Shown one piece after another: positions 1,966-58,325 of a stretch of DNA of 60,000 bases. The translations under genes and the position numbers were made by a program. Below the pieces are notes generated by a model, which worked only from the letters and a program-made list of their open reading frames with translations, had not been told where the DNA came from and ran no database searches. The stretch is taken from NCBI RefSeq assembly GCF_963921235.1, contig NC_086108.1, positions 37,512,001 to 37,572,000 on the forward strand. The letters are read 5' to 3'. Every line of letters begins with the position of its first letter. Positions within the stretch are counted from its first letter, which is position 1. The stretch comes from Mobula hypostoma. Lineage: Eukaryota.

Positions 1966-2080
1966 AAAATAATCTGCAGATGCTGGGGTCAAAGCAACAC
2001 TTCCAACACGCTGGAGGAACTCAGCAGGTTGGGCAGCATCCATGGAAAAGATCGGTTGACGTTTTGGGCCAGAACCCTTC
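1966..2080 (-). mobile_element. Penelope-like terminal repeat fragment (truncated within the hammerhead core)
   Basis: ctgcagatgctgg...gctggaggaactcagcagg...gacgttttgggccagaacccttc, same repeat as 56870-57000. Confidence 0.7.
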
Positions 2081-2159
2081 TGTGCTTTCTGCTCCCATTG
2101 TACCTCTGTTACAATGGGAGAAAAAATGGTCCCAATTGTACTTTTAAATGTTGGTTTTA

Positions 2160-11062: not shown

Positions 11063-13464
11063 CACAATATTTTGCATTCTTGCAAAATGCTCAAATACAG
11101 AAGTATGAATTTCCATTTTGTAAAAAATAAACTAACAGGAAAAAAGTGAGTGAGCTCATGGCTTCACAGTTAAATGTATATAACAAAGAAAATAAGTAAA
11201 TTATTACAGTTGATATAGTACAGATCACTACTCGATTGTATGTCTGTGAAGCTGTGATGATTTTAACCCTACAGTCAAGATAGTGTTCTTTTTCCCATTT
11301 TAATCATACTTCTGGATGTTTTAAAATGGCAGCATTCCATCTTCCCTTGGAGAAGACAACCATTCTGAAAAAGGTTTGGATCTGAACAGGCCCTGCAGAT
11401 AATTTATTTTAGATACAGGATTATTTCATATCTAAGAATCCACTTTCTGTTTTTAAAAGGTATCAAATACCTCTTAATACCTTATTAAAATGGTGAAAAT
11501 GAAGCATTGTACAAGAATATTATCTTACAATGACATACTAGTTATAGGTTTAGTACATAATTAATTGGTTAGAAATTCAGCCCAGTCAATCTTGCTAAGT
11601 GTGCTAGATAATTGAGTCAATGTCTCTGAAATTCATTCCACTGACTCCTTACTTCTGAGAATTTGGTTCTCTTTATGGAATGATAAAGAGGCTACTGAGA
11701 ATTTAATATAGGCTCCCAAATTATGAAAATAAGACAGGTGAGCAGAACTAGGAGCCACTCACCAGGGATATATTTCTAGGCAAGTGTATTTTACTAATCC
11801 TTGCGAGTTGGTGTAATAATGACTATGATTGATATATTTGTTCAGTGAAACATCTGCTTGGCCCTCCACTCCCACTTATTCCTCCAGACTCAATCCAATT
11901 TTAAAATCTGCTTTATGTACTAAAAAATGATCTGGAAATAGGCAGCATATTTTCAGAATTTTTTATTTTCTTGAGGTTACAATTAATGCGTGCTCTGGAG
12001 GAGAGTTCAAATACATGTGGCAGGAGGACCAGGAGCAAGATGCAGTAGTTGAGATGGGGGGAAATAAAGGCCAATATTAAACTAGAAGAGTCAAACAACT
12101 ACAGAAAAGGAAATGTTGGTAGGGGACAAGGAGAGAAGAATTATTGAATCAGACATGCATGATGTTGGAATGAATGTGCATTAGTGTGATGAGTAAATAC
12201 AATGCTCAAGTTACTATACACATTCATATCAATGGCTGTTATGGCTTAACAAGGCTGTAATGGGCACTAAACATTGCTCCAAGTAATTAACTGGAATTAG
12301 AGAACAGGGATGGGATAAAGAATGAATTGATCAATATTTTACTGTTATATTACTTCGTACATTGTCCCCAAATTATGAAAACAAGAAAGGGCATGCAATC
12401 TGTAGCAAGTAATTAACATATGAATGATGGCATAATTTGTATTTTATTTTTTACCCGACTTTCTTGCCACCTTCTAGACTTCTGCTGAGCCTATTCACTA
12501 CCTTGTGTGCTAATTTGATCTTGTGTGACTGCATCCTTCACATTTACTTCAGTCAGGTTCCTCACAATTAATTTTCTCCCTGGCACTGTGCCATCATTTC
12601 CTCATTAATTACTATGACGTTCCTCTAGTCTACAGCCTTGTCCCTCATATCCCATCCTTGTGCATGATTCCGCGAAGCTAACAACTTCAGTCTTTTCCCA
12701 TGTTCCTTTGAGCAAGTTTTGCTTTAGATTAAATCATACATAAAATATTTTCACGGGGTTTCTTACAGTGGCTATCATTTTTAAAATCGGGTTCACACAA
12801 GACATTTCTTCTAGAAACAGTAATACTGCCACAGTGTCCATCCTTTAAAAAGATAGTTTGTTTCCTAACAGAAAGCATTTATACAAATCATATCAAAATG
12901 AATCATTACCCTCCTTCTGGCATTGCCTTAACAAAAAATAATGCAATAATCTTTTGACTTTCTGTGTTGCTAGATGTTTTGGTCGTGAATTGCTTTTTCG
13001 AGCCACTGATTTCCTGTCATTTTACTCGTACTTGCTGTCTACGTTTTGCATTCTCTTGATATAAAAGACAAATCTGCAGTTTAAAGCTGTTGCCATGCAA
13101 CTTCCACCATTTCTTATCCAAGTCAAAAGCAAATAAATCAATAAATAAATACACTTGATGCTGAAATTACATTTTGAAATGAAAAATAACAGGTAGCAAA
13201 TAATAATGAACATTGTAAGCCGATGGTTATTAATAGTAAGTTTAATATGATTAAACTTTACTATCATAATTTTCTCCCCATGAAATTGAGATAGACTATG
13301 TCTTTGTCTCCATACATTGCCGATGAATGAAATTGCAAACAAAGAAGAAAATAACATTATGGGAGCAGCTGGGATTGTGCTGAATAATACACCCACCACA
13401 TCAACACCTCATTTTTTCTGAGCTTAGCTTCACTTATTGATTAATGCTACGCCTTAAAAAGAAC

Positions 13465-15590
13465 ACAAAAGATTCTACAGAAACGGGAAATCTTGAACGA
13501 CAACACAAAATGCTGGAGGAACTCAGCAAGTCAGGCAGCATGTATGGAGAGGAATAAATAGTGGACATTTCAGGTTGAAACTCTTCGTCAGGACTGGAAA
13601 GGAAGGGGACAGAAACCCAACAAAGAACCTAGGGCGAGGTGAAGGAGCACAAGCTGATAGGTAATAGTTGAGATCAGATAAGGGTGAAGGTGGGTAGATG
13701 AGGAGGAGGGATGAAGTAAGAATCTGGGAGGTGATAGGTGGAAGAGGTAAAGGGCTGAAGAAGAAGGAATCTAATAGGACAGGACAGTGGACCATGGAAG
13801 AAACAGAAGGACAAGGGGCACCAGAGGGAAGTGATGGGTAAGTGAAAAGAGAAGCGTTGAGAGGATAATCAGAATGAGGGATGGAAAGACAGGAGGGAGA
13901 TGGAAGAAGCTACTGTAAATTAGAGAAATCATTGTTCATGTCATCAGATTAGAGGCTAATCAGATGAAATGTGAGGTATTTTAACTCCATTCTGAGTTTG
14001 GCCACATCATATCAGTAGAAGAGACTATGGATAGACGTCAGAATAAGAACAGAAAGGCAAATTGGAATGGGTAGCCACCAGCTGCTCGACAAAGCAGTTC
14101 CACAATCTGTATAGGGTCTACCAATATAGAGATTATATCAGATACAATAACTGAGCCTTTCAGACTTGCAGGTGAAGTGCTGCCTCACCTGGAAGGACTT
14201 TGGAGTCTGGAATGTTGGTGAGGCAGGAGATGTCGGGGCAAGTGTAGCACTTGTCATGCTTGCAGGGATAAATGCCTAGTGTAAGATAAGTGGGGAGGGA
14301 CAAATGGACAAGAGTGGTTCCTAGAGAGTAATCCCTATAGAAAGCAAAAAAAAAAGGAGATAGGAAGCATGTGCTTCGTGTTAAGATCCCTTTGAAAGTG
14401 ACAGGAGTTACAGGAAATGACATGCTGGGTACAGAGATTCATAGGGTGGCATGTAAGGACAGGGGGAAACCTATCCCTGTTATAATGGCAGGAGAATGGG
14501 GTGAGGGAAGATGTGTGGGAAATGGAAGAAAAGTGGGAGTGGGCAGATCAATGGTAGAAGGGAGGTTCACGAGGATTATTCCAGTAATGAAGGGGTTAAC
14601 ATATGAGGAGCGTTTGACAGCTTTGGGCCTGTACTCTCTGGAATTTAGAAGAATGCAGGAGTATCTCATTGACACCCAGTGAATGCTGAAAGGACTAGAT
14701 AGGATGGAGGTGGAGAAGATCTTCCCCATAGTGAGGATGTCCAGAGCTAGCAGGTACAGCCTCAAAATTGAAGGGTGACCCTTTAGAACAGAAGTAAGGA
14801 GAACTTTTTTTAGACAGAGAATAGTAAATCTGTAGAATGCTCTGCCACAAATTGTGGTGGAGGCCAAGTCCGTGCGTATATTTAAGGCGGAAATTGATCA
14901 TTTCCTGATCAGTCAAGGCATCAAAGGATATGGCAAGAAGACAGGAGCACGGAGTTGAGTGGGATCTGGGATCAGTCATGATGCAATGGCAGAGCAGACT
15001 TGATGGGGGTGAATGGCCTAATTTAGCTCCTATGTCTTATGGTCTTATAGCCTAGGAGAAACCTCATTCTTTGAAAAAAAAGAGGACATCTCAAATGTAC
15101 TAAAATGGAAAGCATCATTCTGAGAACAAATATGGTGGTAGTAACGGAGGAACCGAGAGATTTTTACAAGTAATAGGGTGGGAAGAGTTACAGTCAAGAT
15201 AACTGAGAGACTCAGTAGGTTTTTGAAAGATGCCAGTGGATAGTCTGTCTCCAAAAATTGAGAAAGGGGAGAGGAATGCCAAAGATGGATCAAATAAATT
15301 TGAGTGCAGGATGCACGCTGGGGGCAAAGTTGATGAAATTAATGATTTCAGCAAGGGTGCAGGAAGCAGCACCAATACAGTCACTAGTGTAGCAGAGCAA
15401 GAGTTAGGGAGTATTACCAGTGTAGGCTTGGAACATGAACACATAGCCAACAAAAAAGCAAACACGGTTGGGACTCACGCATTGCCAATGGCTGTAGCTT
15501 TGGTTTAGAGAAAGTGGAAGGGGCCGGATGAGAAATTGCTGAGGATAAGAGCCAGTTCCACAGTTCCACCAGGTGGAGGATAGTAGTAGA
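13465..15590 (-). mobile_element. Penelope-like element (degenerate RT, GIY-YIG region and terminal repeat), interrupted by CR1
   Basis: Terminal repeat at 13465-13600; GIYPCKHDKCYTCP; similar to 56870-58325. Confidence 0.8.
14556..15047 (+). mobile_element. CR1 LINE 3' end nested in Penelope
   Basis: RFTRIIPVMKGLTYEERLTALGLYSLEFRR; tail tgtcttatggtcttat. Confidence 0.9.
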
Positions 15591-15945: not shown

Positions 15946-16011
15946 TCCCTTGTCCCCACTACAGATGTCTTATGCCATTTAACAATTGGACTCTAGTCAC
16001 ATCCAAGCATA

Positions 16012-16865
16012 CGAGGGGTGATTGATAAGTTCATGGCCTAAGGTAGAAGGAGTCAATTCTAGAAAACCTAGCACATTTATTTTTCCTACATTTAGTCATA
16101 GTCATAGTCATAGTCATACTTTATTGATCCTGGGGGAAATTGGTTTTCATTACAGTTGCACCATAAATAATAAATAGTAATAAAACCATAAATAGTTAAA
16201 TAGTAATATGTAAATAATGCCAGGAAATAAGTCCAGGACCAGCCTATTGGCTCAGGGCGTCTGACCCTCCAAGGGAGGAGTTGTAAAGTTTGATGGCCAC
16301 AGGCAGGAATGACTTCCCATGACGCTCTTATTTACACACTTAGTCCAGCAGTCGTGGAGCATATGGATCCCTTCTTTATAGAAGTCAGCGTCTTGGACCT
16401 CCAGAAAGTGGTCCATGGCAGAGGTGATTGAAGTTCGTGGACTAAGGTAGAAGGAGATGAGTTATTAACTTCAAGCTTTCTGCATTTTCACTCAAAGAGT
16501 TGAACTGCACGTGCATGTAACAAGAGCTCTATATCTCATCTCCTTCTACCCAAGGCCATGAACTTATCAAGCTGTGGACCACCTGGAGGACCAAGATGCT
16601 CTCGTTACATCCACATGCAGTTCAACTCTTTGAGTGATAATGCAGAAAGTTTGAAGTTAATAACTCATCCCCTTCTACCTTAGGCCACAAACTTATCAAT
16701 CACCCCTGCTGTGGACCACTTCTACAAAGAAGGGATCCGTATGCTCTACGACCACTGGACTAAGTGTGTACATGTAGGAGGGGACTATGTTGAAAAATAA
16801 ATGTGCTAGGTTTTCTAAAATGGACTCCTTCTACCTTAGGCCACGAACTTATCAATCACCCCTCG
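16012..16865. mobile_element. Mariner-derived palindromic MITE
   Basis: TA TSD; TIR cgaggggtgattgataagttc / gaacttatcaatcacccctcg; encodes the mariner C-terminus FYKEGIRMLYDHWTKCVHVGGDYVEK*. Confidence 0.9.
16095..16329 (-). mobile_element. LINE 3' end (Rex-like) with (TGACTA)n tail nested in the mariner MITE
   Basis: tagtca x4 tail; candidate TSD attta (16090-16094, 16330-16334). Confidence 0.65.
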
Positions 16866-19189
16866 TACACCAGATGAGCTACAATCAACATTGTCGAAAT
16901 CAATGAAGAGCCAACAAGACATTGTATGGTGAAGAATTGACAGCATTAAAAGCCACATTCTAAATGCACTGCTGCTTAATGAAGCATTTGCAAAGTCACT
17001 GCCAGTTTGAATCAGCAGGTGTAATACTACTATCACTTTTAACATCTTTATATTTACTATAACGCCAGAAGTTAACAAAGGTTTAAAAAATGTCCAGGGT
17101 TGCTTCACGATGATACCAAGGTCTCTTTATGAACAGAAATTTTGATCGTACCCTTCATACGTTATAAGAACATTCATATTATATATAATAAATGCACAAT
17201 GAAACAGGGTTAACCTGTTAATTAAACCATGACCCAGGATTGATAATAATATATTACAAGGAGCTGAAGTAATTCTTGTCTGTTATTAAATGTATAGCTG
17301 CGCAAGTCACTTGTTTTCTCACTCTTTGTGTCTCTCAGTCTATGGCTCACATCGATGAGCTTATGTTTTAACTCAAAATACATCCCTCAGTATTATCTCA
17401 CTCAACACAGAAAATAACTATCTTTTACACAAACAAATCACCTGCCAGAGGTGTTCACGAAACTTTCACTTGACAGAGTGGCAGAGATCTGATTATAAAG
17501 AGGATATGCACAGAACGGAAAGGTTGCAAAAAAAAGCACCATATGATACCACACTGAATAAGAACTGAGAAATGATCTTACATTATTAAGAGGTTTAACT
17601 GAGTAGTTAGGGGTAATATCTTACAATTTCCTCTAAAATTCTGAAAATATTTAACAGGATAGATATGGAGATCTTTACAGCTGTGAACTGACTGAAGGGA
17701 AAGGGGCTGAATTGTACTGACCAAAGCAAGCAGTCCTGAAGGGAACTGAGAGCATTCAGTACCTCCACGACAAACAAGTGCTGGACAAGTATTAATGTGT
17801 TGTAAATCTAAGACTTTCTGACCAGGAGATATTTTATTATGATTTTTTAATTGTTTAAGACAGTTTTGTATCTGAATATTAGAGACATGGCCTGTGCAGG
17901 AAATGAGGTTCTTCTTCCATGAGGTGAGCAGTATTGGCACAAAAATATGAACAAAGGACTTCCCACAGCATTTCACATTACCTCTTGTCAATGGCTGTTG
18001 GGTATTCCGGGGGCTGGGCCTCTGCAGAACATAACCTAAGACTTACTTGCTGTTGCATTCTCCAATGCCTCAGCAGATACCTCCAAGGAAGTTGAAGGTC
18101 TGCATATTCTGTCCTTCACTTCCAGCCAAGGGAAGTGCAGAAGGGTAGAGATAGTTGGGAGTCGGTGTGAGACTAAGTTGTGCAGTCAATCTAATGTTTC
18201 TCAATTTGAGCTAATTCATTAATAAATCCATCAGGAGCTCACTAAACGAATTTGTGGTAGAGAAGAATTTTGTCTGTGTAAACTGTGAATGCTCAAGATA
18301 GCAGAGTCAACTGCTTGAGATGCACTTAAGGAAAATCTAGAGAGACCAATGCATTGTAGGGAATAGGAGGAGATAGTCTGATGGAATAAACAATGAGCAG
18401 TAAAGAAAGCCAAACTTATGTAATAAACAAGAACAATTAAAATATTGCTGTAATACTAATAAAAGTAAACCAAAGAAAACAAACACGCATAAACAAAAGC
18501 AATTACTGAGTGTAAAAAGCCATCAAGTGGAACAAAGTGGGAAGAAATAATTATGAAAATGTTTCAGATGAGAGTATGAACACAATTTAATTGTTCCAAG
18601 CTGTTAAAATATTTTGATAAATGCGGGAAAGTAATTAATTTATGAAAGGCTTAAACAAACATTTTGACCATATTTAAATACTTGTTATTGTGCACAGTTG
18701 CAGATACGTGTAACCTCAAAGATATATTCCAACTGGCCTATTGGTGTCTGGAAATTCGTCTGGCCTGTTTTTGGTAAACATACAGTATTCTATGCATCTT
18801 CCACATTGTGCTAATTCCCAATCTTATTCCATTGCAAAACATTGTGTAATTGGTTAAAAATACAGTGAAGCAATGGTTTCACCGGGAAACATGCTCCACA
18901 ATGGGAACTACTCTGTTCGTGGTTATTGTTCCAAGGGACAATTAAATGCAGCTTCCAAAATTCAACTGTGCTCCTATGTGATAAGTACATCAACAAATGC
19001 AGATATGACACAGAAACAAACAGCAGCAATACACATTCTATCTGCTATGAAAGTAAGAAAGACCTCACAATTGAGGGGAGGAGGCCTGTCAGAACTGTCA
19101 GAAGGTTGTGGACATCATTAGAGAGATAGCAGGAGAATGTTCCTGTGCTACCCTGAGATGCCATAAGAAAAGTCTGGCATGAGGATCTC

Positions 19190-20610
19190 TAAACACAAAA
19201 GATTCTGCGGATGATGGAAATCCAGAGTAACACACACGAATTCCTGGAGGAACTCAGCAGGTCAGGCAGCATCTATGAAGGAGAGTAAACATTCAAAGGT
19301 TTGGGCTGAGACCCTTCATTAGGACTAAAAAGGAAGGGAGAAGAAGCCAGAATATGATGGTGGTGGGCGAGGGGGGAATACCAGTCAGCAAGTGATAGGT
19401 GAGCACAAGATATTCTGCAGATGCTGGAAATCCAGAATAACACACACAAAATACTGAAGGAATTCAGCAGGCCTGGCAGCATTTATGGAAATGAATGAAC
19501 AGTTTTGATGAAGGGTCTTGGCCCAAAACATCAGCTGCATATTCATTTCCATAGATGCTACCTGACCTGCTGAGTTCCTCCAGCATTTTGTGTGTGTTGT
19601 GTAGGTGATTGGTGAAGTTAAGTGAGGGAGAGTAATCTTTCTGTTGAAGATTATTTCTGCCATCTTCAATGGGATCCTACCAGTCAACACACTTTTCCAT
19701 CCCCTCCATTCTCTGTTTGGCACAGGGATCTCTCTCTCCGTGACTCTCCTGTCCATTCATTCCTTCCCTCCGATTTTCCTCCTGGTATTTATCACTTCAA
19801 GCAGCACAAGTGCTACACATGCTCATTCACCTCCTCCCTCACCACCAATCAGGGTCCCAAATAGTCCTTCCATGTGAGGCAATTCTTCACCTGCAAATCT
19901 GTCAGGGTCATCTACTGTATCTGTTGCTCCCAGCATGGCCTCCTCTACATTGGCAAGACTCAATGTAGTTTGGGGGACTGCTTTGTCAAGTGCCTTGCTT
20001 CGTTCACAACAGGCAGGATTTCTTGGTGTCCACACATTTTAATTCCACTCACCATTCCCATCCAACCTGTTGATCCATGGCCTCCTCTACTGCCATGATA
20101 AGGTCCCTCTCAGGTCGAAGGGGCAACACCTCATATTCCATGTGGGCAGCCTCCAACTTGATGGCATAAACATAGATTCATTTAACCCCTTGTAATATAT
20201 TCCCCCTCCCCCTTCTCCTTCTTTTTCCATTCCCCATTCTGGCTCCACTGTTATCCCTTCTTTTCTGCTCACCTGCCTATCACTTCCGTCTGGTGTCCCT
20301 TCTCTTGCCCTTTCTCCCATGGTCCACTTTCCTGTTAGCTTCCTTCTTCTTCAGCCCTTTACCTTTTCCAGCTATCACCTACCAGCTTCTCACTTCAGCC
20401 CCACATCCCCCCTGACCTTCCTCCTCACCTGGCTTCACTTATCACCTGCTAGCTTGAACTCCTTCCCTCCCCTCACCTACTTATCCTGGCTTCTTCCCCC
20501 TTCCTTTTCCAACCTGATGAAAGGTCTCAGCTTGAAACATTGACCATCTATACTTTTCCATAGCTGTTGCCTGATCTGCAGAGTTCCTCCAGCATTTTGT
20601 ATGTGTTACG
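19190..20610. mobile_element. Penelope-like element with inverted 5' segment (19190-19630 minus; 19630-20610 plus, GIY-YIG)
   Basis: FTCKSVRVIYCICCSQHGLLYIGKT GIY-YIG motif; terminal repeats in opposite orientation at both ends. Confidence 0.85.
19403..19601. mobile_element. Penelope-derived foldback mini-element with a hammerhead-like core in the loop
   Basis: ~65-bp inverted arms (about 19437-19501 / 19533-19599); TSD taggtga at 19396-19402 and 19602-19608. Confidence 0.7.
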
Positions 20611-21239: not shown

Positions 21240-21333
21240 CAACACGCACAAAATGCTGGAGGAACTCAGCAGGCCAGGCAGCATCTATGGAAAGAAGTAT
21301 AATCGACTTTTCAGGCTGACACCCTTCAGCAGG
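21240..21333 (-). mobile_element. Penelope terminal-repeat mini-insertion
   Basis: aacacgcacaaaatgctggaggaactcagc...cttcagcagg, flanked by the direct repeat tcactttccatgc on both sides. Confidence 0.75.
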
Positions 21334-21819
21334 TCACTTTCCATGCTATGACAGTGGACTGTCAGAATAATCTGACATGTCTGTTTGTCCCTTTGATTGA
21401 TCTACGGGAAGGTTTGGGGTAGTTTGTATTCGAATAGCTGCAATGACTTCACTCTGGTAGCATCACCTCCTGGACGGTCCTTTCGATCACTGACCCAACC
21501 ATTGACAGGAGTCCAGCTCATTTGTGTTTACACCTAGTAAGCGTGGGGTGGTGGCATTCAAATGCTATGTGTGATTTCTTCACTTTCTCATTGAGCCTTG
21601 CCATTGAAGTTGTTGAGCTCGATGTCTCTGCCATAACTTTCTTATCTATTTTCCCCAATACATTTCTAATCTGATCAATACAACTAATTATCTACTTCCC
21701 AGAACCTATAGCTGCACAAGCTAAGTATAGTTACCGTTATACATTAACATGTTGTTCATGGCTTGCTGACACACTCTCTGTGTCTTCTGCATTCATATTT
21801 CTATTTATTGCACCTGCAG

Positions 21820-23242: not shown

Positions 23243-25659
23243 AATAGGTGCAGGAGTAGGCCATTCGGCCCTTTGAGCCTGCACCGCCATTCAGTATAAT
23301 GACGGCTGATCATCCAACTCAGAACCCTGTAACTGCCTTCTCTCCATACCCCCGATCCCTTTAGCCACAAGGGCCATATCTAACTCCCTCTTAAATATAG
23401 CCAATGAACTAGCCTCAACAGTTTCCTGTGGCAGAGAATTCCACAGATTCACCACTCTCTGTGTGAAGAAGTTTTTCCTCATCTCGGTCCTAAAAGGCTT
23501 CCCCTTTATCCTCAAACTGTGACCCCTCGTTCTGGACTTCCCCAACATCAGGAACAATCTTCCTGCATCTAGCCTGTCCAATCCCTTTAGAATTTTATAC
23601 GTTTCAATAAGATCCCCCCTCAATCTTCTAAATTCCAGCGAGTATAAGCCTAGTCGATCCAGTCTTTCATCATATGAAAGTCCTGCCATCTCAGGAATCA
23701 ATCTGGTGAACCTTCTTTGTATTCCCTCTATGGCAAGACTGTCTCTCCTCAGATTAGGGGACCAAAACTGCACACAATGCTCCAGGTGTGGTCTCACCAA
23801 GGCCTTGTAAAACTGCAGTAGTACCTCCCTGCTCCTGTACTCGAATCCTCGTGCTATGAATGCCAGTATACCATTAGCTTTTTTTATCACCTGCTGTACC
23901 TGTATGCCCACTTTCAATGACTGGTGTATAATGATACCCAGGTCTCTTTGCACCTCCCCTATTCCTAATCAGCCACCATTCAGATAATAATCTGTTTTCC
24001 CGTTGTTTTTGCCACCAAAGTGGATAACCTCACATTTATCTACATTAAATTGCATCTGCCATGAATTTGCCCACTCACCTAACCTATCCAAGTCACCCTG
24101 CATCCTCTTAGCATCCTCCTCACAGCTAACAGTGCCGCCCAGCTTCATATCATCCGCAAACTTGGAGATGCTGCATTTAATTCCCTCGTCTAAGTCATTA
24201 ATATATATTGTAAACAACAGGGGTCCCAGCACTGAGCCTTGCGGTACCCCACTAGTCACTGCCTGCCATTCTGAAAAGGTCCCGTTTATTCCCACTCTTT
24301 GCTTCCTGTTTGCCAACCAATTCCCTAACCACATCAATAACTTACCCACAATACTGTGTGCTTTAAGTTTGCACACTCGTCTCCTGTGTGGGACCTTGTC
24401 AAAAGCCTTTTGAAAATCCAAATATACCACATCCACTGGTTCTTCCCCTCCACTCTACTAGTTACATCCTCAAAAAATTCTATGAGATTCGTCAGACATG
24501 ATTTTCCTTTCACAAATCCATGCTGACTTTGTCCGATGATCTCACCACTTTCCAAATGTGCTGTTATCACATCTTTGATAACTGACTCTAGCATTTTCCC
24601 CACCACCGATGTCAGGCTAAGCGGTCTATAATTCTCCGGTTTCTCTCTCCCTTCTTTTTTAAAAAGCAGGGTTACATTAGCCACCTTCCAATCCTCAGGA
24701 ACTAGTCCAGAATCTAAAGAGTTTTGAAAAGTTATCATTAATGCATCCACTATTTCTTGGGCTACTTCCTTAAGCACTCTGCAATGCAGATCATCTGGCC
24801 CTGGGGATTTATCTGCCTTTAATCCCTTCAATTTACCTAACACCACTTCCCTATTAACATGTATTTCCCTCAGTTCTTCCATCTCACTAGACCCTTGGTC
24901 CCCTACTATTTTCGGAAGATTATTTATGTCCTCCTTAGTGAAGACAGAACCAAAGTAGTTATTCAATTGGTCTGCCATGTCCTTGTTCCCCATGATCAAT
25001 TCACCTGTTTCTGACTGTAAGGGACCTACATTTGTCTTAATCAATCTATTTCTTTTCACATATCTATAAAAGCTTTTACAGTCAGTTTTTATGTTCCCTG
25101 CCAGTTTTCTCTCATAATCTTTTTTCCCTTTCCTAATTAAGCCCTTTGTCCTCCTCTGCTGGACTCTGAATTTCTCCCAGTCCTCAGGTGTGCCGCTTTT
25201 TCTGGCTAATTTTTACGCTTCTTCTTTGGAATTGATACTATCCCTAATTTCCCTGTCAGTCATGGGTGCACTACCTTCCCTAGTTTATTCTTTTGCCAAA
25301 CTGGGATGAACAATTGTTAACAACAGGAATTCTGCAGATGCTGGAAATTCCTGACGAAGGGTCTTGGCCTGAAATGTCGACTGTACCTCTTCCTAGAGAT
25401 GCTGCCTGGCCTGCTGCGTTCACCAGCAACTTTGATGAACAATTGTTGTAGTTTCTCCATACGATCTTTAAATGCTTGCCATTGCATATCCACCGTCAAC
25501 CCTTTAAGTATCATTTGCCAGTCTATCTTAGCTAATTCATGTCTCATACCTTCAAAGTTACCCTTCTTTAAGTTCAGAACCTTCGTTTCTGAATTAACTT
25601 GTCACTCTCCATCTTAATGACGAATTCCACCATATTATGGTCACTTTTACCCAAGGGGC
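23243..25659 (-). mobile_element. CR1 LINE, 5'-truncated, relatively young (long RT ORF pieces)
   Basis: ORFs of 241, 155 and 220 aa: KSPGPD, QHGFVKGKSCLTNL, YLDFQKAFDKV, GVPQGSVLGP, FADD; TSD ctggta (23237-23242, 25660-25665). Confidence 0.95.
25319..25433 (+). mobile_element. Penelope-derived mini-insertion (inverted head plus hammerhead core) inside CR1
   Basis: 14-bp duplication gatgaacaattgtt at 25305-25318 and 25434-25447; ctgacga-a-ggg-tcttgg-cct-gaaa-tgtc. Confidence 0.8.
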
Positions 25660-31194: not shown

Positions 31195-31500
31195 TGAGCA
31201 CTTTGAATTATTAACTTCAAACTTTCTGCATAATCATTCAAAGAGTTGAACTGCACATGCACGTAACGAGAGCTGTATAACTCATCTTCTTCTACCTTAG
31301 GCCACAAACTTATCAATCACCCCTGCTGTGGACCACTTTCTGGAGGTTCAAGACGCTGACTTCTACAAAGAAGGGATCTGTATGCTCCACGACCGCTGGA
31401 CTAAGTGTGTACATGTAGGAGGGGACTATGTTGAAAAATAAATGTGCTAGGTTTTCTAAAATTGACTCCTTCTACCTTAGGCCATGAACTTATCAATCAC
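31195..31500 (+). mobile_element. Fragment of the same mariner MITE family as 16012-16865
   Basis: ttctacaaagaaggg...ggggactatgttgaaaaataa...gaacttatcaatcac. Confidence 0.85.
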
Positions 31501-31669
31501 TTAGTATTCTTTCTTTATTTCTTATTGCACGTTTAGAGCAGCTGAGATGCCAGACAGGATATAGGAAGGAGCCTCTTGTGAGATGTAGCAAGGTAAGGGG
31601 ACCTAGAATGTCCCTGATGACGACACCTGCTAGAAGTGTCTCCAGCTGCAGCTTCTAGCAAACAATGTT

Positions 31670-31705
31670 AGTCCTGACGAAGGGTCTCGGCCTGAAACGT
31701 CGACT
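31670..31705 (+). ncRNA. Minimal type-I hammerhead ribozyme motif (Penelope-type), best-preserved copy
   Basis: AGUC-CUGACGA-A-GGG(UCUCGG)CCU-GAAA-CGUC^GACU: stem I AGUC/GACU, stem II, catalytic cores, GUC cleavage triplet. Confidence 0.7.
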
Positions 31706-31803
31706 GCGCCTCTTCCTATAGATGCTGCTTGGCCTGCTGCGTTCACCAGCAACTTTGATGTATGTTGCTTGAATTTCCAGCGTCTGCAGAATTCCTGTTG
31801 TTT
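31670..31803 (+). mobile_element. Penelope terminal-repeat mini-insertion in CR1 ORF1
   Basis: Begins at the hammerhead motif and ends ...ctgcagaattcctgttgtt; CR1 ORF1 sequence on both sides. Confidence 0.8.
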
Positions 31804-34358
31804 AAGGAATTAGAGCTGGAACTGGATGAACTCCAGATCGATGATAAGGCTGAGGGGTCATGGGGGATGGGAACTAGAGCACCATAATAAATAGTGTAGG
31901 GTTGTGGAGAAAAGTGTTGTTAAACCCACATACAAAGTCAGGAAGTAAAAGGTTGAGCATGGTGAGACTAATGTTCTAAGCTATATATATTTCAATGCAA
32001 GAAGTATCGTAGGAAATTCGAATGAGCCGAGGGTAAGAAACAGCTTACACATTGGAGCCGTTAGTGAGACTTGGCTGCAGGAAGGGTGGGACTGGCAGTT
32101 TAAGGTTTTCGGGTTCCATTGTTTTAGACATGATAGAGCAGGAGGGATTAAAGTGGGAGGGGTGGCATTACTAGTCAGAGAAAATGTCACTGAAACTGCT
32201 CAGACAAGACAGACTGGGAGCTCATCTAGGGAGGCTTCATGGGTAGAACTGAGGAATAAGAAAGGTATGGCTATGTTAATGGAATTACATTATGGACAGC
32301 CCAACAATCCACGAGATTTAGAGGAACAAATTTCTAGAGAGATTGCAGACTGTTGCAAGAAATCTAAGGTTATGATAGTAGGTGATTTTAACTTTCCACA
32401 TATTGACTGGGACTCCCATACTGTAAAAGGACTGGATGGGAAAAAGTTTGTCAAATGTGTTCAGGAATACTTCCTTAAAAAGTACATAGATGTTCCAATT
32501 AGAAAGAGTGCAATACTAGATGTCCTTTTAGAGAATAAAACAGGGCAGGTGGCAGAAATTTGTGTAGGGGAACACTTTGTATCTAGTGATCATAATACCA
32601 TTAGATTCAAGATAATTATGGAACAGTATAGGTCTGAACCTTGGGTTGAGATTTTAAATTACAGAAAGGCCAATTTTGATGGTATAAGAAAAGATCTGGC
32701 AGGTTGTTTTCTCTCAAAGGTGTACTTGTGTGAAGTCTTCAAATATGAAATTTTGAGAGTACAGAGTATATATGTTCCTCTCAGAATAAAAGGCAAGGAT
32801 AACAGGTTTAGGGAATCTTGGTTTTCGTAAGATATTAATGCTCTGGTTAAGAAAGAGAAGGAGGTACATTGCAGGAAAAGGTAGGCAGAGACAAATGAGG
32901 AACTTGAGTCTCAGAAATGCAAGAGAACATTTAAGAAGAAAATCAGGAAGGCTAAAAGAAGACATGAGGTTTCTGTTACAGACCAAGTGAAAGAGAATCC
33001 TCAGGGCTTCTACAGATATATTAGGAGTAAAAGGATAGCAAGAGACAAAGTTTGTCCTCTGGAAGATCAGATTTGTAGTGTATGCATAGAGTTGAAAGAG
33101 ATGGGGGAAGACTTATATGGATTTTTTGCATCTATATTTATTCAGGAGGTGGTCACAGAGTCCATGTGAGGCAATGCAGCAGGGAGGTCAGGGTCCCTGT
33201 GCAGATTACAGAGGAGGTGGCGTTTGCTGTTGAGTCAAATAAGGTGGATAAATCCCCAGGGCCTGACAATCTGTGCCCTTGGACCCTGTGGAAAGAGAAT
33301 GCAGAAACTGCAGAGGCCCTGCCAGAAATATTTAAAACATCCTTAGCCATAGGTGAGGTGCTGGAGGATTGGAGGATATCTGATGTTGTTCAGTTGTTTA
33401 AGGAAAGCTCTGAGAATAAACCAGGAAATTATAGGCCAATGAGACTGACATCAGTAGTGGGAAAGTTAATGGAAGGTATTCTAAGGGACTGGACATATAA
33501 GTATTTGGATAAATAGGGACTGATTAGGGATAGTCAACATGGCTTTGTGCATGGTAAGTCATGTCTAACCAATCTCATAGAGTTTTTCCAGGAAGTTACC
33601 AGGAAAATTTATGAAGGCAAGGCATGGGCTTTAGCAAGGCATTTGACAAGGTCCCATATGGAAGGTTGGTCAAGAAGGTTCAGTCGCTTGGCATTCAAGA
33701 TGAGGTAGTAAATTGGATTAGACATTGGTTCCATGAGAGAAGCCAGAGAGTGGCAGAAGATGGTTGCATCTCTGACTGGAGGCCCGTAACTAGTGGAGTG
33801 CTGCAGAGATCAGCGCTGGGTCCATTGTTGTTTGTCATCTATATCAACCGTCTGGATAATAATGTGGTTAACCGGATCAGCAAATTTTCAGATGACACCA
33901 AATTAGGGGGTGTAGTGGTCTACGAGGAAGTCTATCAAAGCTTGTAACAGAATCTGGACCACCTGATGAAATGGGCTAAAAAGTGGCAGATGGAACTTAA
34001 TGCAGACAAATGTGAGGTTTTGCCCCTTGGGAGAACCAACCAGAGTAGCTCTTACATGGTGAGCAGAAGGACACTGAGGAGTGTGGTAGAACAAAGAGAT
34101 CTTGGAATACAGGTTCATAATTCCTTGAAAGATGTGTCACCGGTAGATAAGTTCATAAAGAACGATTTTGGCACATTGACCTCATAAATCAATCTTTTGA
34201 GTACAGGAGTTGGAATGTTATGGTGAAATTGTATAAGATATTGGTGAGGCCTTCGCTGGAGTATTCCATGCGGTTTTGGTCACCTACCTGCAGGAAAGAC
34301 ATAAATAAAATTGAAGAAGTACAGACAAAATGTACAAGGATATTGCCAGGACCTGAGG

Positions 34359-38139: not shown

Positions 38140-39005
38140 ACATTGATCCATTTGTCCCTCCCCATTCATCTCCCTCCTGGCACTTATCCTTGCAAGCAAA
38201 ACAAGTGCTACACCTGCCCCTAAACCTCCTCCCTCACTATTATTCAGGGCCTCATACAGTCCTTCCAGGTGAGGCAACACTTCATCTGTGAGTCTTTTGG
38301 GGTCATCTAGTGTATCCAGTGCTCGCGGTGTGGCCTCTTGTGTATCAGTGAGACCCACTGTAGAGAGGGAGACCGCTCCAACAAGCACCTATGCTCTGCC
38401 GGCCAGAAAAAGCAGGATCGCCCAGTGGTCACCCATTTTAATTCCACTTCCCATTCCCATTCCGACATGTCAGTCCAGGGCCTCCTCTACTGCCATGATG
38501 AGACCACCCTCAGGTTGGAGGAGCAACACTTCATATTTTATCTGGGTAGTCTCCAATCTGATGGCATGAACATCAATTTCTCAAACTTCCAGTAATGTCC
38601 CCGCTTCACCATTCCTCCTTCCTAGTTCCCTCTCTCACCTTATCTCCTTACCTGCTCATCACCTCCCTCTGGTTCTCCTCCCCATTTTCTTTCTTCCATG
38701 GCCTTCTGTCCTCTCCTATCAGGTTCACCCTTCTCCAGTCCTCTTTCTCGTTCACCAATCAACTTCCCAGCTCTTTCCTTCACCCCTCCTCCCAATTCCA
38801 CTTATCACATTGTGTTTCTCCCTCCCCTCCCCCACCTTCTAATCTGACTCCTCATCTTTTTCTCTCCAGTCCTGATGAAGGATTTCGGCCCAAAACTTCA
38901 CTGTTTACTCTTTTCCACAGATGCTGCTTGGCCTGCTGAGTTCCTCCAGTATTTTGTGTGTGTTGCTTGGATTTCCAGCATCTGCAGATTTATCCTCGTT
39001 TGTGA
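38140..39005 (+). mobile_element. Penelope-like element 3' part (GIY-YIG and terminal repeat)
   Basis: VTHFNSTSHSHSDM..GLLYCHDETTLRLEEQHFIFYLGSLQSDGMNINF; cagtcctgatgaagg at ~38867. Confidence 0.88.
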
Positions 39006-42252: not shown

Positions 42253-42584
42253 TGTGCGGTTATATCTCAAATGTCTCAGTCTATGGCCCTGATGATGTCA
42301 CTGGCTAGCTGGCACGGCCCCTTTAAAAATTCAGGCCCGCCCCACTAATTGGCAGCCATGTTTTCGCACCAGGATTTTAATATTGAAGGAGCACCTGGAC
42401 TGTGGTTCAGTGCTCAACCTTCAGCTCAACTTTGGATTCTCACCTAACGTCTAGTTTAGAAGCTTGTCTCTGTTTCAGTCTTGTATCATGTCTCGATTCT
42501 AGTCTCAAATAATCCCACTCATGTTTGCTGACTATCCTCGCCTAGGTCTTTTGTCATAGTGTGATTGAGTCTCACAATAACACA
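42253..42584 (+). mobile_element. Candidate LTR of Gypsy element
   Basis: tgtg...caca termini, tttaaaa TATA-like motif, directly upstream of pol remnants. Confidence 0.45.
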
Positions 42585-42589
42585 ATGGG

Positions 42590-43770
42590 GTGTCAGATCC
42601 TCTCGTCAGCAGAAAGTTCATCAGAAACTTCAGCTCAGTGGCAGCTCCGCTGACAGCAGGAACTAATAGATCCATGGGCCCTTTTGTTTGGACTAACAAA
42701 GCGGAGGCTGTGTTTGCGGAGCTCAAACAGCGGTTCACAACAGCTCCCATTTTGGTTTCACCTTACCTGGGCCTTACCTTCATCATGGAGGCGAGCACCT
42801 CAGACTTTGGAGTGGGTCTGGCTATCCCTGCAGAGGTGAACTATGGCAACAGAAATAGAGAGCTGCTTGCAGTCAAATTGGTTTTGGAGGAATGGCATTA
42901 CTGGCTTGAGGAGGCTAAGAACCTTTTTGTGTATGGACAGACCACAAGAACCTGGTTTATATTCAGGAGGCCAATAGACTGTATTCTAGTAGGCCAGGTG
43001 GTCTCTTTTCTGTAACCACTTCAGTTTCGTCCTGATCTATTAACCAGGGTCAAAGATTCAGAAACCGGATACCTTGTCTTATCAGTTCGACGAAGTCGAA
43101 AGACAGCAGCACCCTACCACTATTTTGCCCCAAGCAAAGGTGATGGTGCCAACTCATTGGGGATTGATGCATTTGCTCGTAAGGCCCAGGCACAAGGGGA
43201 GATTCCCAAGAGCAGTCCTCTGGGTCGTCTGTTTATCCCAGGTTCCATCAGGTCTCAGGCACTTCAGTGGGGCCACACATCGAGAATGACCACTCACCTG
43301 GGGATTGCCAGGACCCTCGGGTTCATCACGAGAAGATACTGGTGGCCTGGAAAGGCGAGAGGGCTTTGACAATATGTCCAGGCGTGCAAGGAATCCTGCA
43401 CCCAACCTCAAGGGCCCTTTCACCCTCCACCTGGTCATTTGATGTGGGCAGAGGTTACCCACAACATTTTGTAGTATTCTGCATATGGGTCTTCTTTGCT
43501 GCTCTTCCCTGAGCAGAAGGCTGAGGTTGGGGTTCCTGCAGCCAAAGATCTCGTCTGACACTGCAAGGAGAAATGGACTAGGGCAAGGGAGATTTTGTTG
43601 GTCTCTACCCGGAAGGCTGAAATAAAGGCTAAACGCAAGAGAAGACATTGACCAGCTTTGCAGCCTTGGCGACATAGCTGGCTGTCTACTGAGGATTCAT
43701 CTCCCCGAGGGGAATCTAGGAAGAAGATGCTCCAGGAGATCTTCGCCTTCAGTATCTCCACAATCATTAG
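42590..43770 (+). mobile_element. Ty3/Gypsy (sushi-like) pol remnant: RT connection/RNase H and integrase Zn-finger region
   Basis: RKFIRNFSSVAAPLT, FTTAPIL, NYGNRNRELLAVKLVLEEWHYWLE, HTSRMTTHLGIARTLGFITRRYWWP. Confidence 0.85.
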
Positions 43771-43799
43771 GGTTGGGAGTTGTTGTTGTTACCATCACA

Positions 43800-44455
43800 G
43801 TCCTCCCGATACTGGACGGCCTTAGCAGGAACGGCTGCAGCTTTGGACATTCAGCCTACAGGGGATCTGCTTCTCCACAGTAGTAGCAGCAACCTCTACT
43901 CCACCACCGGGACCTCTCATTGGTGAAGAGTCTTGTGTAGCCTACTTGCATAGGCTCAAGAGGATCCTGGGCTGGACAATATCTGAGGTAGGCAGTGGAA
44001 CTGTGATGCGTTGAGGCTGGACTTGGGCTAGCCCTCTTTGACCTCTTGAGGTAGTCCCACTCTCGCTCCACCAGGCAATTATCAAAGCAGATTGACTGGT
44101 CAATCAGATCCTCTATGTCCTCTACCATCTCTCCCAAGGCAAGGACATCCTTTGGAGAGAGTCTGTGTTGGCACAGAATGGCCAAGGCCTCCCCATTCCA
44201 GCCACTGTCCTCGGCCAAAGTCCGAAATTCAATAACATAGATGGCTGGAAACCACCTATCCTGACACACCGTCATCCGAAGGTCCAAGGCTCTGCTTGCT
44301 TTGGTGGGATGATGAAACACCTTCCTCATGGCGTCCATGAATACGTCTGAATCCGAGCAAATCTCCGACCTCCACTCCCAATATGCAGTGGCTCAGGCCG
44401 AGCTTTCCTGGTCAGGAAAGAGATCATAAAGGCCACCTTTCTGTGTTCTGTAGGC
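43800..44455 (-). mobile_element. Sushi-like Gypsy gag remnant
   Basis: KVAFMISFLT, YVIEFRTLAEDSGWNGEAL, EPMQVG, CCYYCGEAD (degenerate CCHC knuckle). Confidence 0.85.
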
Positions 44456-55230: not shown

Positions 55231-56867
55231 TCTATCTGTAATAATCCTATTTTTTCTTCTGCTTTTATACCTGAATCTCATATGCAAGCTCCCAATCTTT
55301 TTGCATTCTGCAAGATATTTTTTTAAAAATGTAGTTATAAATTAATGTTTTGTTCTTTCTAGTTTGCTGCTGTGAGAATTCTTCAATATGATTCATTGCT
55401 CAGTCAACTTGATTGCATCACAATGGCAGGATCCTGGAGACCTTCTTTAGAATCTAACACCAGAATTAATTTAACGCTGGAAGGAGACAAACTGGCAGCA
55501 TAATGATTTCAGGACATAAACAGACGATGCTGCAATCTCTAGCCAAAATCAAACTGCCGAAAGGACTCAGTGGTTCGAACAGCATCTATTGAAGGAAATG
55601 GACAGTCAACATTTTGAGTGGAGACCATTTATCTGTACTCTGCAGGCAACTTTGCTTGGGGTAGATAGGGAATAAATGCCTTCACAGGCTCTTAAGTCCG
55701 ACCTATTGTGTTATATCACAGAGTAAAAGGAATTTGGTTTTAGATCAGCCACTAGTTAAGTACCCCGCTTAATTTTTCATCCATTGGAAATATAGTTTTC
55801 CATTAATATTTTCATAAATGGAACACAAAACAGTACAGTACAGGATTCCAACTCGCAATGTTGTGCCAAACTAATTTAATTAGTAATTAAATGTGTAACT
55901 AAACCAACCCCTTCTGCTTACACAATGTCCAGATCTCATATATATTCATGACAGGAATAATTTATTGCTAATATTTTCAGTAAGCGATATCAAAGTGTAC
56001 ATGAATAGGAAAAAGTGATTTCAGCTCTTCCAGGATCTTTAATTTTTTGGGATTCCTTGCTTTTGAAAGTAATTGATCAATATAAAATAGATTAGAATTC
56101 CCAGATTATAAGAGAAAACTTATGAGCGGGTTTGATATGTTCCATAGGGCCTTACAGAAAGTATGCATGTAGATATTGGAAAATACATTTGTTCATGGCT
56201 ATAACAGTTTCCATAGTTAAGCAACGTAGACTCACTATCCAAGATTGGTTATGAAAAACATCCACTTGGCTACTGGGCGTGTTAAGCTGCCTTCAAGTCA
56301 GGAAAACAGAATCAAAGGTGAGTTTGTATTGGAATCAAATCTCCACAAATTGACAATTTCAAATGCAGTAACGTAACCTTGCAAAAGCAGCTAGCAATTT
56401 GAAGGGTGAAAGAAAAGCAATTCATCTCCATATTTTCTTGCATGCACCACTTGATACCTAGGCTGCATCAACCCCTTCAATGTTATAGAGTACATATTCC
56501 TCAACCTTCAGATGTGGATTGAAATATTATTCTTAATTATGACTTCAAAATTCCTTGATGTGCATACTATGTTGAATGTTATACACAGAACGATATTATA
56601 ACTCTTTGTAATATAAATACACCAATAGATTATCAAAACACTGGAAAAAAAGGTAAAAAAATATTTAGGCCTGTAGTGAATTAGCAGGTTCTCATGTATA
56701 GAGAATGCATCACAAATGGTTAGAGGAACAAAAAGACCAGGAAATACATTTATAAACTTAGACAAGTCAATAATAACTCAAACATGAAAACAGAGCATTG
56801 TGGCTCAGTCCTAGAGGAAAAGCAAAGATATTAAATTAAGGCTTGCATTAATCACAGAGATTTAAAA

Positions 56868-58325
56868 TACAAAAATGAGATGCAGATGATGGAAATCCAA
56901 GCAACACACACAAAATGCTGGAGGAACTCATTCGGCCAGGCAACATCTATGGAAAAGAGTAAACAATCGATGTTTCAGGCCAAGACCCTTCATCAGGACT
57001 GGAGAGAAAAAGATGAGAAGTCAGAGTAAGAAGGAGGGGAGAGAGGAGGAAGAAATACAAGGTAGTAAGTGATAGGAGAAACCAGCAGAAGGGGAGGGGT
57101 GAAGTAAAGAACTGGGAAGTCGATTAGTGAAAGGGATAAAGGGCTAGAGAAGGGGGAAACTGATAGGAGAGAACAGGAGGCCATGGAATAAAGGGAAGGG
57201 GAAGGAGCACCAGAGGGAGGTGTTGGGCAGGTAAGGAGATGAGGTGCAAGAGGGAAATGGGAATGTGAAGGAATGGAGCGAGCAATTACCCGAAGTTTGA
57301 GAAATCGATGTTTGATGCCATCAGGTTGGAGGCTACCCAGACACAAATAAGGTGTTGTTCCTCCAACCTGAGTGTGGCCTGTTTACAGCAGTAGAGAAGA
57401 CCATAGACTGACATCTCAGAAAGGGAATCGGAAGTAGAATTAAAATGGGTGGCCACTGAGAGATCCCACTTTTTCTGGTGGTTGGAACATAGATGCTTGG
57501 CGAAGTGGACACACAAAATCTACATTGGGTCTCATTGATATAGAGGAGGCCACACTGGGAGCACTGTGTACAGTAAATGACCCCAAAAGACTTGCAGTTG
57601 AAGTGTCGCCGCATCTGGAGAGACTCTTTGTGGCCCTGAATGGTACTGAGAGAGGAGGTGTAGGGGCAGGTGTAGCACTTGTTCTGCTTGCAAGGTTAAG
57701 TACCAGGAGAGAGATCAGCAGGGAGGGACGAATGGACAAGGGAGTCGTGTAGGAAGCGATGCCTGCAAAAAACAGAAAGTTGGGGCGGGGTGGAGAGGGA
57801 AAATGTGCTCGGTGTCGGGATCCTGCTGGAGACAGCAGAAGTTACAGAGAATTACGTGCTGGACATGGAAGGGTGGTGAAGTGGTTGGTGAGGACAAGAG
57901 GAATCCTATCTCTGGTGGGGTGCTGGGAGGATGTGGTGAGAGCAGACGTACATGAAATGGAAGATATGTGCTTGAGCTAGGATGGTGGAGGGAGAGAAGC
58001 CCCTTTCTTTGAAGAAGGAGGTCATCTCCTTAGTTCTGGAATAAAAAGTCTCATCCTGAGAACAGATGCAGAGGAGACAGAAGAATTGAAAGAAGGGGGT
58101 GGCATATTTACAAATAACAGAAAGGGAAGAGGTATAGAATCAGTGGGTTTATAAAAGATATCAATAGATTAGCTGTGTCCAGAGATAGAGACAGAGATCA
58201 AAAAAGGGGAGGGAGTTGTCAGAAATGGACCAGGTAAATTTGAGGGCAGGGTGGAAGTCGGAGGCAAAGTTGATGAAGTCGACAAGCTCTGCAAGGGTGC
58301 AGGAAGCATTATCAATGCACTCATC
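56868..58325 (-). mobile_element. Penelope-like element (RT C-terminus, GIY-YIG, terminal repeat)
   Basis: LVDFINFASDFHPALKFTWSISDNSLPFFDL; HFNCKSFGVIYCTQCSQCGLLYINET; RLEEQHLI. Confidence 0.9.
56964..57001 (-). ncRNA. Minimal hammerhead ribozyme motif in Penelope terminal repeat
   Basis: CAGUC-CUGAUGA-A-GGG(UCUUGG)CCU-GAAA-CAUC^GAUUG; 5-bp stem I with one G-U. Confidence 0.6.

What the first reader, a model, noticed from the sequence alone, without database searches (positions are those of the whole stretch)
31670..31705. Minimal hammerhead ribozyme in the Penelope terminal repeat, about 10 copies in 60 kb
Seen: AGTC-CTGACGA-A-GGG-TCTCGG-CCT-GAAA-CGTC-GACT. It has both hammerhead core boxes, stems I and II, a GUC cleavage triplet and an extra A after A9. 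Helix III is reduced to the palindrome ACGU with no loop. Variants lie at about 2050-2080(-), 13560-13596(-), 19290-19326(-), 19500-19535(+), 20511-20545(+), 21300-21332(-), 25347-25382(+), 38867-38903(+) and 56964-57001(-). Established: Penelope-like elements carry minimal type-I hammerheads that are thought to cleave as dimers. Inference: the loopless ACGU means helix III can only form between two copies, so cleavage would need tandem repeats or two transcripts. If this region is an intron, such sites could cut host pre-mRNA.
Basis: partly seen in the sequence, partly recalled or inferred. Interest (0 to 1): 0.72.

Follow-up and report, generated by a model that had tools for sequence, protein, structure and literature searches.

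The report
Hammerhead caps Penelope retrotransposon RNA start
The motif is a real minimal hammerhead (a predicted self-cutting RNA) in the end repeat of a very abundant jumping gene of a known kind, and the ends of its genomic copies pile up at the motif's first base rather than at its cut site, so the element's RNA likely begins at the ribozyme and is likely copied back into DNA uncut.

Summary
Confirmed, and of a known kind. The 36-mer at 31670-31705 is a minimal type-I hammerhead in the pseudo-LTR of a Neptune-like Penelope element (RT, CX4CxxC linker, GIY-YIG), in a genome that is likely a cartilaginous fish's. It has 32,886 exact copies; 65,699 copies keep an intact-looking core; the family is roughly 450,000 copies. 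Such motifs, their extra nucleotide and their dimer model are published. Only 1 of 12 window copies keeps an intact core, and it is a solo 134-bp insert in a dead LINE. Under 1% of copies are joined to an ORF start, so tandem dimers are rare. No host exon was found; cutting of host pre-mRNA is unsupported.

Added here: 5' ends of copies cluster at the hammerhead's first base (3.0% of copies genome-wide against 0.42% at the cut site; 7 of 41 internal jumps against 0). That base lies in an initiator-like motif about 30 nt after an AT island. None of 16 full-length copies starts at the cut. The RNA likely starts at the ribozyme and is copied uncut. Cleavage was not tested. This scan noted the same reading earlier on other genomes; one note reports the opposite.

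The parts
31670..31705 (+). Minimal type-I hammerhead: stem I, CUGACGA, extra A, stem II closed by G-U, GAAA, ACGU palindrome, predicted cut 31701/31702
   Evidence: 32,886 exact genomic copies
31670..31803 (+). Whole insert: solo 134-bp pLTR fragment from the first hammerhead base (-32 from the cut) to the long tail end (+102); no clear target-site duplication; the 5' edge is ambiguous by up to 3 bases of microhomology
   Evidence: the flanks form one LINE reading frame, and an uninterrupted relative exists in L099; 3' ends cluster near +65-75 and +101-107
31550..33516 (+). Decayed LINE (CR1-like by recalled resemblance; endonuclease and RT remnants) into which the pLTR fragment inserted
   Evidence: Pfam Exo_endo_phos_2 E 3.8e-10 for 31949-32827
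25345..25437 (+). Young-subfamily copy with C15.2 changed and stem I weakened; a short inverted tail piece lies just upstream
56905..57841 (-). Older 5'-truncated copy: hammerhead remnant preceded by a decayed Cys-linker/GIY-YIG frame (57333-57695)
   Evidence: no Pfam hit for this decayed frame, identified by likeness to intact copies
38147..38988 (+). Older 5'-truncated copy with decayed hammerhead at 38867-38903
19190..20607 (.). Cluster of older copies in both orientations (19231-19328 -, 19441-19504 -, 19499-19596 +, 20509-20605 +), all with broken cores
13461..14535 (-). Older 5'-truncated copy with decayed hammerhead at 13560-13596
21243..21336 (-). Short older copy, broken core
1997..2081 (-). 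Copy truncated inside the hammerhead, CUGANGA box absent
55550..55639 (-).

Best explanation
The motif is the minimal hammerhead in the pseudo-LTR of a high-copy Neptune-like Penelope retrotransposon, and it likely forms the first 36 bases of the element's RNA, which is likely reverse transcribed uncut. Shown: the element is a 3,517-bp unit with a roughly 1,015-codon RT plus GIY-YIG frame whose first ATG lies 138 nt after the predicted cut; copies end 3' at about +65-75 or +101-107, run through the cut site, and their 5' ends cluster at -32, the first base of stem I. Inferred: a TATA-like island and initiator put the transcription start at -32; the element's RT primes in the tail, copies to the RNA's 5' end, then joins target DNA, a second oppositely oriented cDNA, or another template. 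The window's copy is such a start-to-tail product. Predicted: alone, the RNA folds into an inactive rod in which core bases GACG pair with CGUC, so cutting would need a second copy and probably the element's protein. Cutting would remove the capped 32-nt leader or sever the priming site from the body, so it more likely regulates or recycles the RNA than defines insert ends. Solo genomic copies are mostly inert and decay fast at CpG sites in the core.
For: Element identity. Genome-wide junction counts (four non-consensus bases directly upstream): -36: 333 (0.89%), -32: 1,067 (3.0%), -30: 532 (1.4%), -2: 93 (0.10%), cut site: 382 (0.42%), +2: 139 (0.15%), +4: 208 (0.23%). First 100 listed copies: 12 end at -31..-34, 2 at the cut, of 39 ending within 0..-55 (binomial p 5e-6; non-inverted only 5 of 16, p 0.003). 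Internal jumps: 7 of 41 land at -32/-33, three with no microhomology and three with added A-rich bases, none with a GT donor, none at the cut. 0 of 16 full-length copies start at the cut; 11 of 16 pass it. AT island at about -32..-25 from the first base and YYAGUCC in four subfamilies whose intervening sequence differs. Monomer fold -10.0 against -6.0 kcal/mol for the open form. Literature: internal priming, protein-assisted cutting, cutting not needed for insertion (PMC11167929); pLTR promoters with initiator (PMC2377424; PMC3846280).
Against: No RNA ends were observed; the start is inferred from DNA junctions. The -32 peak sits in a broad hot zone (-11 to -55) and is only 2-3.4 times its neighbours; 20 of 30 sampled -32 junctions are inverted joins, several with A/AG microhomology. 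Denominators for -36/-32/-30 are estimates scaled from local counts. The cut site shows a 2-4-fold bump over its neighbours, though 18 of 30 sampled cases are inverted joins, many using stem I's own complementarity. 10 of 16 full-length copies extend beyond -50, so many templates reach upstream of the proposed start. The AT island is a poor TATA match in the young subfamily, and the pyrimidine tract plus AG also resembles a splice acceptor. Covariation is not above shuffles.
Confidence: 0.68

Rival explanations
1. Cut-and-circle model: two pLTR hammerheads 3.5 kb apart cut as a dimer, the unit is ligated into a circle, and RT runs round it, giving longer-than-unit inserts with no trace of the cut.
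For: 4 of 20 long copies hold two same-strand motifs about 3.5 kb apart; 10 of 16 full-length copies exceed one unit; an element's two pLTRs differ by 1.4% against 2.8% between elements, 15 elements; proposed in PMC4209133.
Against: A circle has no end at -32, yet ends pile up there. Three elements (L236, L097, L211) differ between their pLTRs at a diagnostic site, and L085 carries a broken ACGU in both pLTRs with shared private changes. Matching pLTRs are equally expected from matched tandem donors. It can coexist with the best explanation for the long copies.
Confidence: 0.2
2. The -32 pile-up is a joining or pausing hot spot (microhomology between oppositely oriented cDNAs, or a splice acceptor at helix I as in Drosophila Penelope), not a transcription start.
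For: 20 of 30 sampled -32 junctions are inverted; pyrimidine tract and AG precede the core in all four subfamilies; the D. virilis intron ends at helix I (PMC4209133).
Against: Jumps at L213, L215 and L221 join at -32 with no microhomology and no GT donor; three clean inserts have the target duplication abutting -32 or one base from it; a splice would begin the exon at -30 or -34.
Confidence: 0.25
3. Dispersed copies cut host pre-mRNAs by pairing in trans or in tandem.
For: 65,699 intact-looking motifs, about 19 per Mb, so many must lie in introns.
Against: Published dimers cut poorly (PMC4209133); the ACGU duplex is predicted at only -1.7 kcal/mol and the monomer prefers an inactive fold; 1 of 12 window copies is intact; no host exon was identified.
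Confidence: 0.07
4. The motif in the young subfamily is a degenerating passenger: G10.1-U11.1 has weakened it and the element spreads regardless.
For: U11.1 in 40 of 50 young copies; L085; hammerhead-less Penelope clades thrive (PMC8557442). That G10.1-C11.1 matters for rate is recalled knowledge; its conservation is stated.
Against: All core positions, stem I and the palindrome are kept in the young master sequence and in 12 of 13 columns across subfamilies, although four core positions lie in CpGs that decay quickly in dead copies (66% retained in old copies).
Confidence: 0.15

Closest known systems
Minimal hammerheads (min-HHR) of metazoan Penelope-like elements (Cervera and de la Pena 2014, PMC4209133; parts 1-2 of 4 of the text read)
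   Same: Type I, short helix I, extra nucleotide between 9 and 10.1, palindromic 15.2-16.2 with no loop 3, located in the pLTR, mostly solo truncated copies; reported for Neptune elements of fishes.
   Different: G10.1-U11.1 in the youngest subfamily; helix II only 4 bp; 65,699 intact-looking copies against about 4,000 and 9,000 reported for coelacanth and Xenopus; position at the inferred RNA start is not stated in the parts read.
Poseidon element of Anolis carolinensis, PAc (Frangieh et al. 2024, PMC11167929; parts 1-2 of 4 read)
   Same: Two internal RT start zones giving the tail; uncut RNA as template; both DNA strands extended, which fits the inverted pairs here.
   Different: In PAc the ORF starts inside the hammerhead; here the ATG is 138 nt after the cut; different clade (Cys linker present).
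Neptune clade of EN+ Penelope-like elements (Craig et al. 2021, PMC8557442; passages)
   Same: RT, DKG motif, CX2-5CxxC linker, C-terminal GIY-YIG; partial tandems, inverted 5'-truncated copies, 30-40 bp tail.
   Different: Neptune versus Nematis not resolved here (no tree with named references).
Animal non-LTR retrozymes (PMC7229834, passages; bioRxiv 10.64898/2026.07.22.740005, parts 1-2 of 5)
   Same: Type I hammerheads acting as dimers; very high copy number (126,247 in axolotl).
   Different: Retrozymes are short non-coding tandem arrays; these copies are truncated ends of a coding element, dispersed or inverted.
L1Tc and R2 elements with 5'-terminal HDV-like ribozymes (PMC6765202, passages)
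   Same: A ribozyme at the very 5' end of a retrotransposon RNA.
   Different: There the cut makes the RNA's 5' end; here insert ends lie 32 nt before the cut.

Membership tests
Minimal type-I hammerhead (PLE type) | CUGANGA and GAAA boxes, NUH triplet, stems I and II | tested here: met
   stems I and II present in the predicted fold
Minimal type-I hammerhead (PLE type) | Extra nucleotide between 9 and 10.1; palindromic 15.1-16.1 without loop | tested here: met
   A at 31681; ACGU at 31697-31700; features listed in PMC4209133
Minimal type-I hammerhead (PLE type) | G10.1-C11.1 pair | tested here: not met
   G-U in this copy and 40 of 50 young copies; G-C in 28 of 65 mostly older copies
Minimal type-I hammerhead (PLE type) | Covariation in stems | tested here: inconclusive
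   74% of cells paired against 20-43% when slid, but 78-166 of 500 shuffles reach the observed values; the copies are neutrally decayed
Minimal type-I hammerhead (PLE type) | Self-cleavage as dimer or with protein | not testable with these tools
   needs an in vitro assay; no raw RNA reads were offered
Rfam hammerhead families | Match to a curated covariance model | tested here: not met
   no hammerhead hit at E<=10 in the window
EN+ Penelope-like element | Single ORF, RT then GIY-YIG | tested here: met
   1,036-aa open frame in L081; GIY-YIG E 1.5e-4 to 1.9e-4, just under Pfam's cut-off, in 2 of 3 fragments; homologues carry PF00078 and PF01541
EN+ Penelope-like element | pLTRs from partial tandems, inverted 5'-truncated copies, optional tail | tested here: met
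Neptune clade | CX2-5CxxC linker between RT and EN | tested here: met
   C-X4-C-X2-C in the frames; the feature is shared with Nematis
Neptune clade | Phylogenetic placement with named Neptune RTs | not tested
   no named reference sequences were at hand
Non-LTR retrozyme | Short non-coding head-to-tail array with a hammerhead per unit | tested here: not met
   window copies are solo or inverted and linked to a coding element

The most novel reading that the evidence does not exclude
In vertebrate Neptune-type Penelope elements the hammerhead is the capped 5' leader of the transcript, placed at +1 by a TATA-like box and initiator. It acts as a protein- or dimer-triggered decapping switch that limits or redirects the element's RNA rather than excising unit copies, and hundreds of thousands of solo pLTRs carry this promoter-ribozyme cassette through the host genome.
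Probability: 0.4. Interest if true: 0.62.

Novelty: new member of a known kind. Interest (0 to 1): 0.36.

Why it matters
The role of Penelope hammerheads is described as unclear in print (PMC8557442). With about 91,000 near-identical young copies, this genome lets insert ends be read as a record of the RNA template. They point to an RNA that starts at the ribozyme and is copied uncut, which gives a direct test (capped ends at -32, 5'-OH ends at 0, circles). The 65,699 intact-looking motifs exceed the minimal-hammerhead counts in the papers read and are about half the axolotl retrozyme count in a genome one eighth its size. The motif and the dimer idea are already known.

Tried and rejected
Rfam scan: no hammerhead hit; only sub-threshold microRNA matches to a (TA)n hairpin.

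Footprint of in vivo cutting as 5' junctions at the cut site: a small bump, mostly inverted joins or single-base deletions; 6 of 30 sampled were simple truncations; rejected as evidence of cutting.

Spliceosomal origin of the -32 junctions: no GT donors; no GT..AG joint onto the motif among the 15 joints shown for four contig runs, 87 more not shown.

RNA evidence: no RNA holder listed on record; the contig runs cannot show ends or strand.

Host gene: 20 of the window's 60 kb were laid with contigs and no exon joints were seen among those shown. None of 126 open frames in mostly unmasked sequence of 260 kb looked like a host exon by eye; they were not scanned against Pfam. Intron status remains unknown.

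pLTR identity as a test for circular templates: not discriminating. Covariation: not above shuffles. The last p-value printed used an arbitrary denominator and is not relied on.

Lunse et al. 2017 was not held; only its title and the summary in PMC6765202 were seen. Searches for a published link between the hammerhead and the transcription start found none: one search listed 4 papers, none. Subscription papers and supplements were not seen and may hold it.

Full report
Observation. The 36 bases at 31670-31705 are as described. All ten listed sites belong to one repeat family; a profile built from them finds 12 window hits and none in reversed sequence. Only the copy in the finding keeps the core and the ACGUH segment (1 of 10 scored; the other two lack the first box). 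Rfam has no matching hammerhead model at E<=10. The exact 36-mer occurs 32,886 times in the 3.48-Gb genome, and a relaxed intact-core pattern 65,699 times. Forty 10-kb stretches taken at round coordinates hold 52 copies, about 450,000 genome-wide (Poisson range 340,000-590,000, clustering ignored).

The carrier. Upstream of young copies lies an RT frame with YIDD, a C-X4-C-X2-C linker and a GIY-YIG domain that stops about 300 nt before the motif. Four of the 20 longest copies fetched have two same-strand motifs about 3.5 kb apart. In L087 the unit is 3,517 bp and the first ATG is 138 nt after the predicted cut. This is an endonuclease-bearing Penelope-like element with the linker of Neptune and Nematis (PMC8557442 passages); the clade was not placed on a tree. 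The named homologues with highest identity are from a bamboo shark (72% and 69%), so the host is likely a cartilaginous fish. The copy in the finding is a solo 134-bp piece (31670-31803) that interrupts a dead LINE frame; a relative without the insert is in L099.

What is already known. Cervera and de la Pena (PMC4209133, parts 1-2 of 4) defined these minimal hammerheads, including the extra nucleotide, the palindromic 15.2-16.2 positions and the dimer model. They reported them in Neptune elements of fishes and found no monomer and low dimer activity. Frangieh et al. (PMC11167929, parts 1-2 of 4) showed internal priming that explains the tail, protein-assisted cutting, insertion independent of cutting, and no RNA-seq ends at the site. 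One departure: the youngest subfamily closes stem II with G-U (40 of 50 copies), where that paper calls G10.1-C11.1 highly conserved.

Do insert ends record cutting? If cut RNA were copied, inserts should begin at the cut. I counted copies with four non-consensus bases directly upstream of a given position. At the cut there are 382 of 90,865 (0.42%), against 93, 139 and 208 at -2, +2 and +4. Of 30 sampled, 18 were inverted joins, many using stem I's own complementarity, and 6 were simple truncations. Among 70 of 738 copies that include the ORF start, none begins within 5 nt of the cut and 52 pass it. Among the 16 of 40 longer loci that proved full length, none begins at the cut and 11 pass it. 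All 100 first-listed copies end 3' at least 38 nt after the cut, mostly near +65-75 or +101-107, so RT starts downstream and reads through the site. Templates were uncut or re-joined.

Where ends do cluster. Internally rearranged copies jump to -32 or -33, the first base of stem I, in 7 of 41 junctions (five others are one shared duplication). Three of the seven have no microhomology, three have added A-rich bases, and none has a GT donor. Genome-wide the -32 junction count is 1,067 (about 3.0%), against 532 at -30 (1.4%) and 333 at -36 (0.89%); these denominators are scaled estimates. Of the first 100 listed copies, 12 end at -31..-34 and 2 at the cut; one of the 12 is probably misplaced, and both arms of inverted pairs are counted. 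Against this, 20 of 30 sampled -32 junctions are inverted joins, 2 are element-internal and 8 are simple, and the whole zone from -11 to -55 is elevated. The A at -32 sits in YYAGUCC, which fits the initiator consensus YYANWYY (recalled). An AT-rich island lies about 32-25 nt upstream in four subfamilies (106, 15, 7 and 3 copies) whose intervening sequence differs. I checked the island after reading an earlier scan note. pLTR promoters with initiator or TATA-like motifs are published for Drosophila and rotifer elements (passages). I infer a transcription start at -32, at about 60%.

Likely working. The RNA would start at the ribozyme. The 36-mer alone is predicted to prefer a rod in which GACG of the core pairs with CGUC across the cut site (-10.0 against -6.0 kcal/mol), and the ACGU duplex needed for a dimer is worth only -1.7. 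Cutting would thus need help, as in PAc. A cut at the 5' copy would remove a 32-nt capped leader; a cut at the 3' copy would separate the priming site from the body. Neither helps a linear template, so cutting is either rare and regulatory or followed by ligation into circles. Ten of 16 full-length copies extend beyond -50, and an element's two pLTRs are closer to each other (1.4%) than to those of other elements (2.8%; 15 elements). This fits circles or matched tandem donors equally. L085 has a broken palindrome in both pLTRs.

Across four subfamily majority sequences the core is identical at 12 of 13 columns, the 36-mer at 28 of 36, the upstream 40 nt at 8 of 40, and two downstream blocks at 10 of 20 and 26 of 40. 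In 67 older copies non-CpG core positions are 88% retained, the downstream block 84%, and CpG core positions 66%, as expected for dead copies. Covariation in 65 of these sequences does not exceed shuffles. Tandem geometry is under 1% of copies. No host exon was found and no RNA run on record was offered, so cutting of host pre-mRNA is untested and, given the above, unlikely for this solo copy.

Verdict. Real, a new member of a known kind, interest 0.36. The value beyond the literature read is the genomic evidence that the RNA likely starts at the hammerhead and is copied uncut. The scan's notes show the same reading on other genomes and one contrary result; these are unchecked and add no support.

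Noticed in passing
L171-L240: In 33 of 70 copies that include the ORF start, similarity to the element breaks off at +144 to +320 and usually resumes in the 3' UTR or pLTR: a second hot zone, possibly a re-priming or template-jump region.
   Followed up: partly
L108:6062-6114, L119:3708-3760, L130:7728-7780, L080:3348-3400: Four old copies have C at position 9 followed by A, perhaps a subfamily with a variant core.
   Followed up: no
L123, L097:6641-6693, L120, L063, L070: An older subfamily appears to have U-A in place of C-G at the innermost stem I pair, a GUU triplet and a one-base longer stem II loop region.
   Followed up: partly
L179, L207, L221, L225, L237: A shared duplication of about 208 nt in the proline-rich N-terminal part of the ORF in five copies.
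   Followed up: no
L085 (both pLTRs): Both pLTRs share a broken ACGU palindrome and two private changes, suggesting copying from a ribozyme-defective template or gene conversion.
   Followed up: partly
L028/L029: A perfect head-to-head palindrome whose two arms both end at -32/-33; inverted pairs are common in this family.
   Followed up: partly
window 54365-54443: Inverted repeat around a (TA)n tract; gives sub-threshold microRNA hits in Rfam, one arm repeated at 54835-54871.
   Followed up: no
window 58698-59602: Frameshifted DDE transposase (Pfam DDE_3, E 8.5e-13), Tc1/mariner-like by recalled resemblance.
   Followed up: no
window 42581-44392: Decayed frames resembling an LTR retrotransposon by eye; no Pfam hit for the one frame scanned.
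   Followed up: no
window 16010-16867 and 31204-31500: Another short high-copy repeat with internal inverted segments, one copy about 170 bp upstream of the finding.
   Followed up: no
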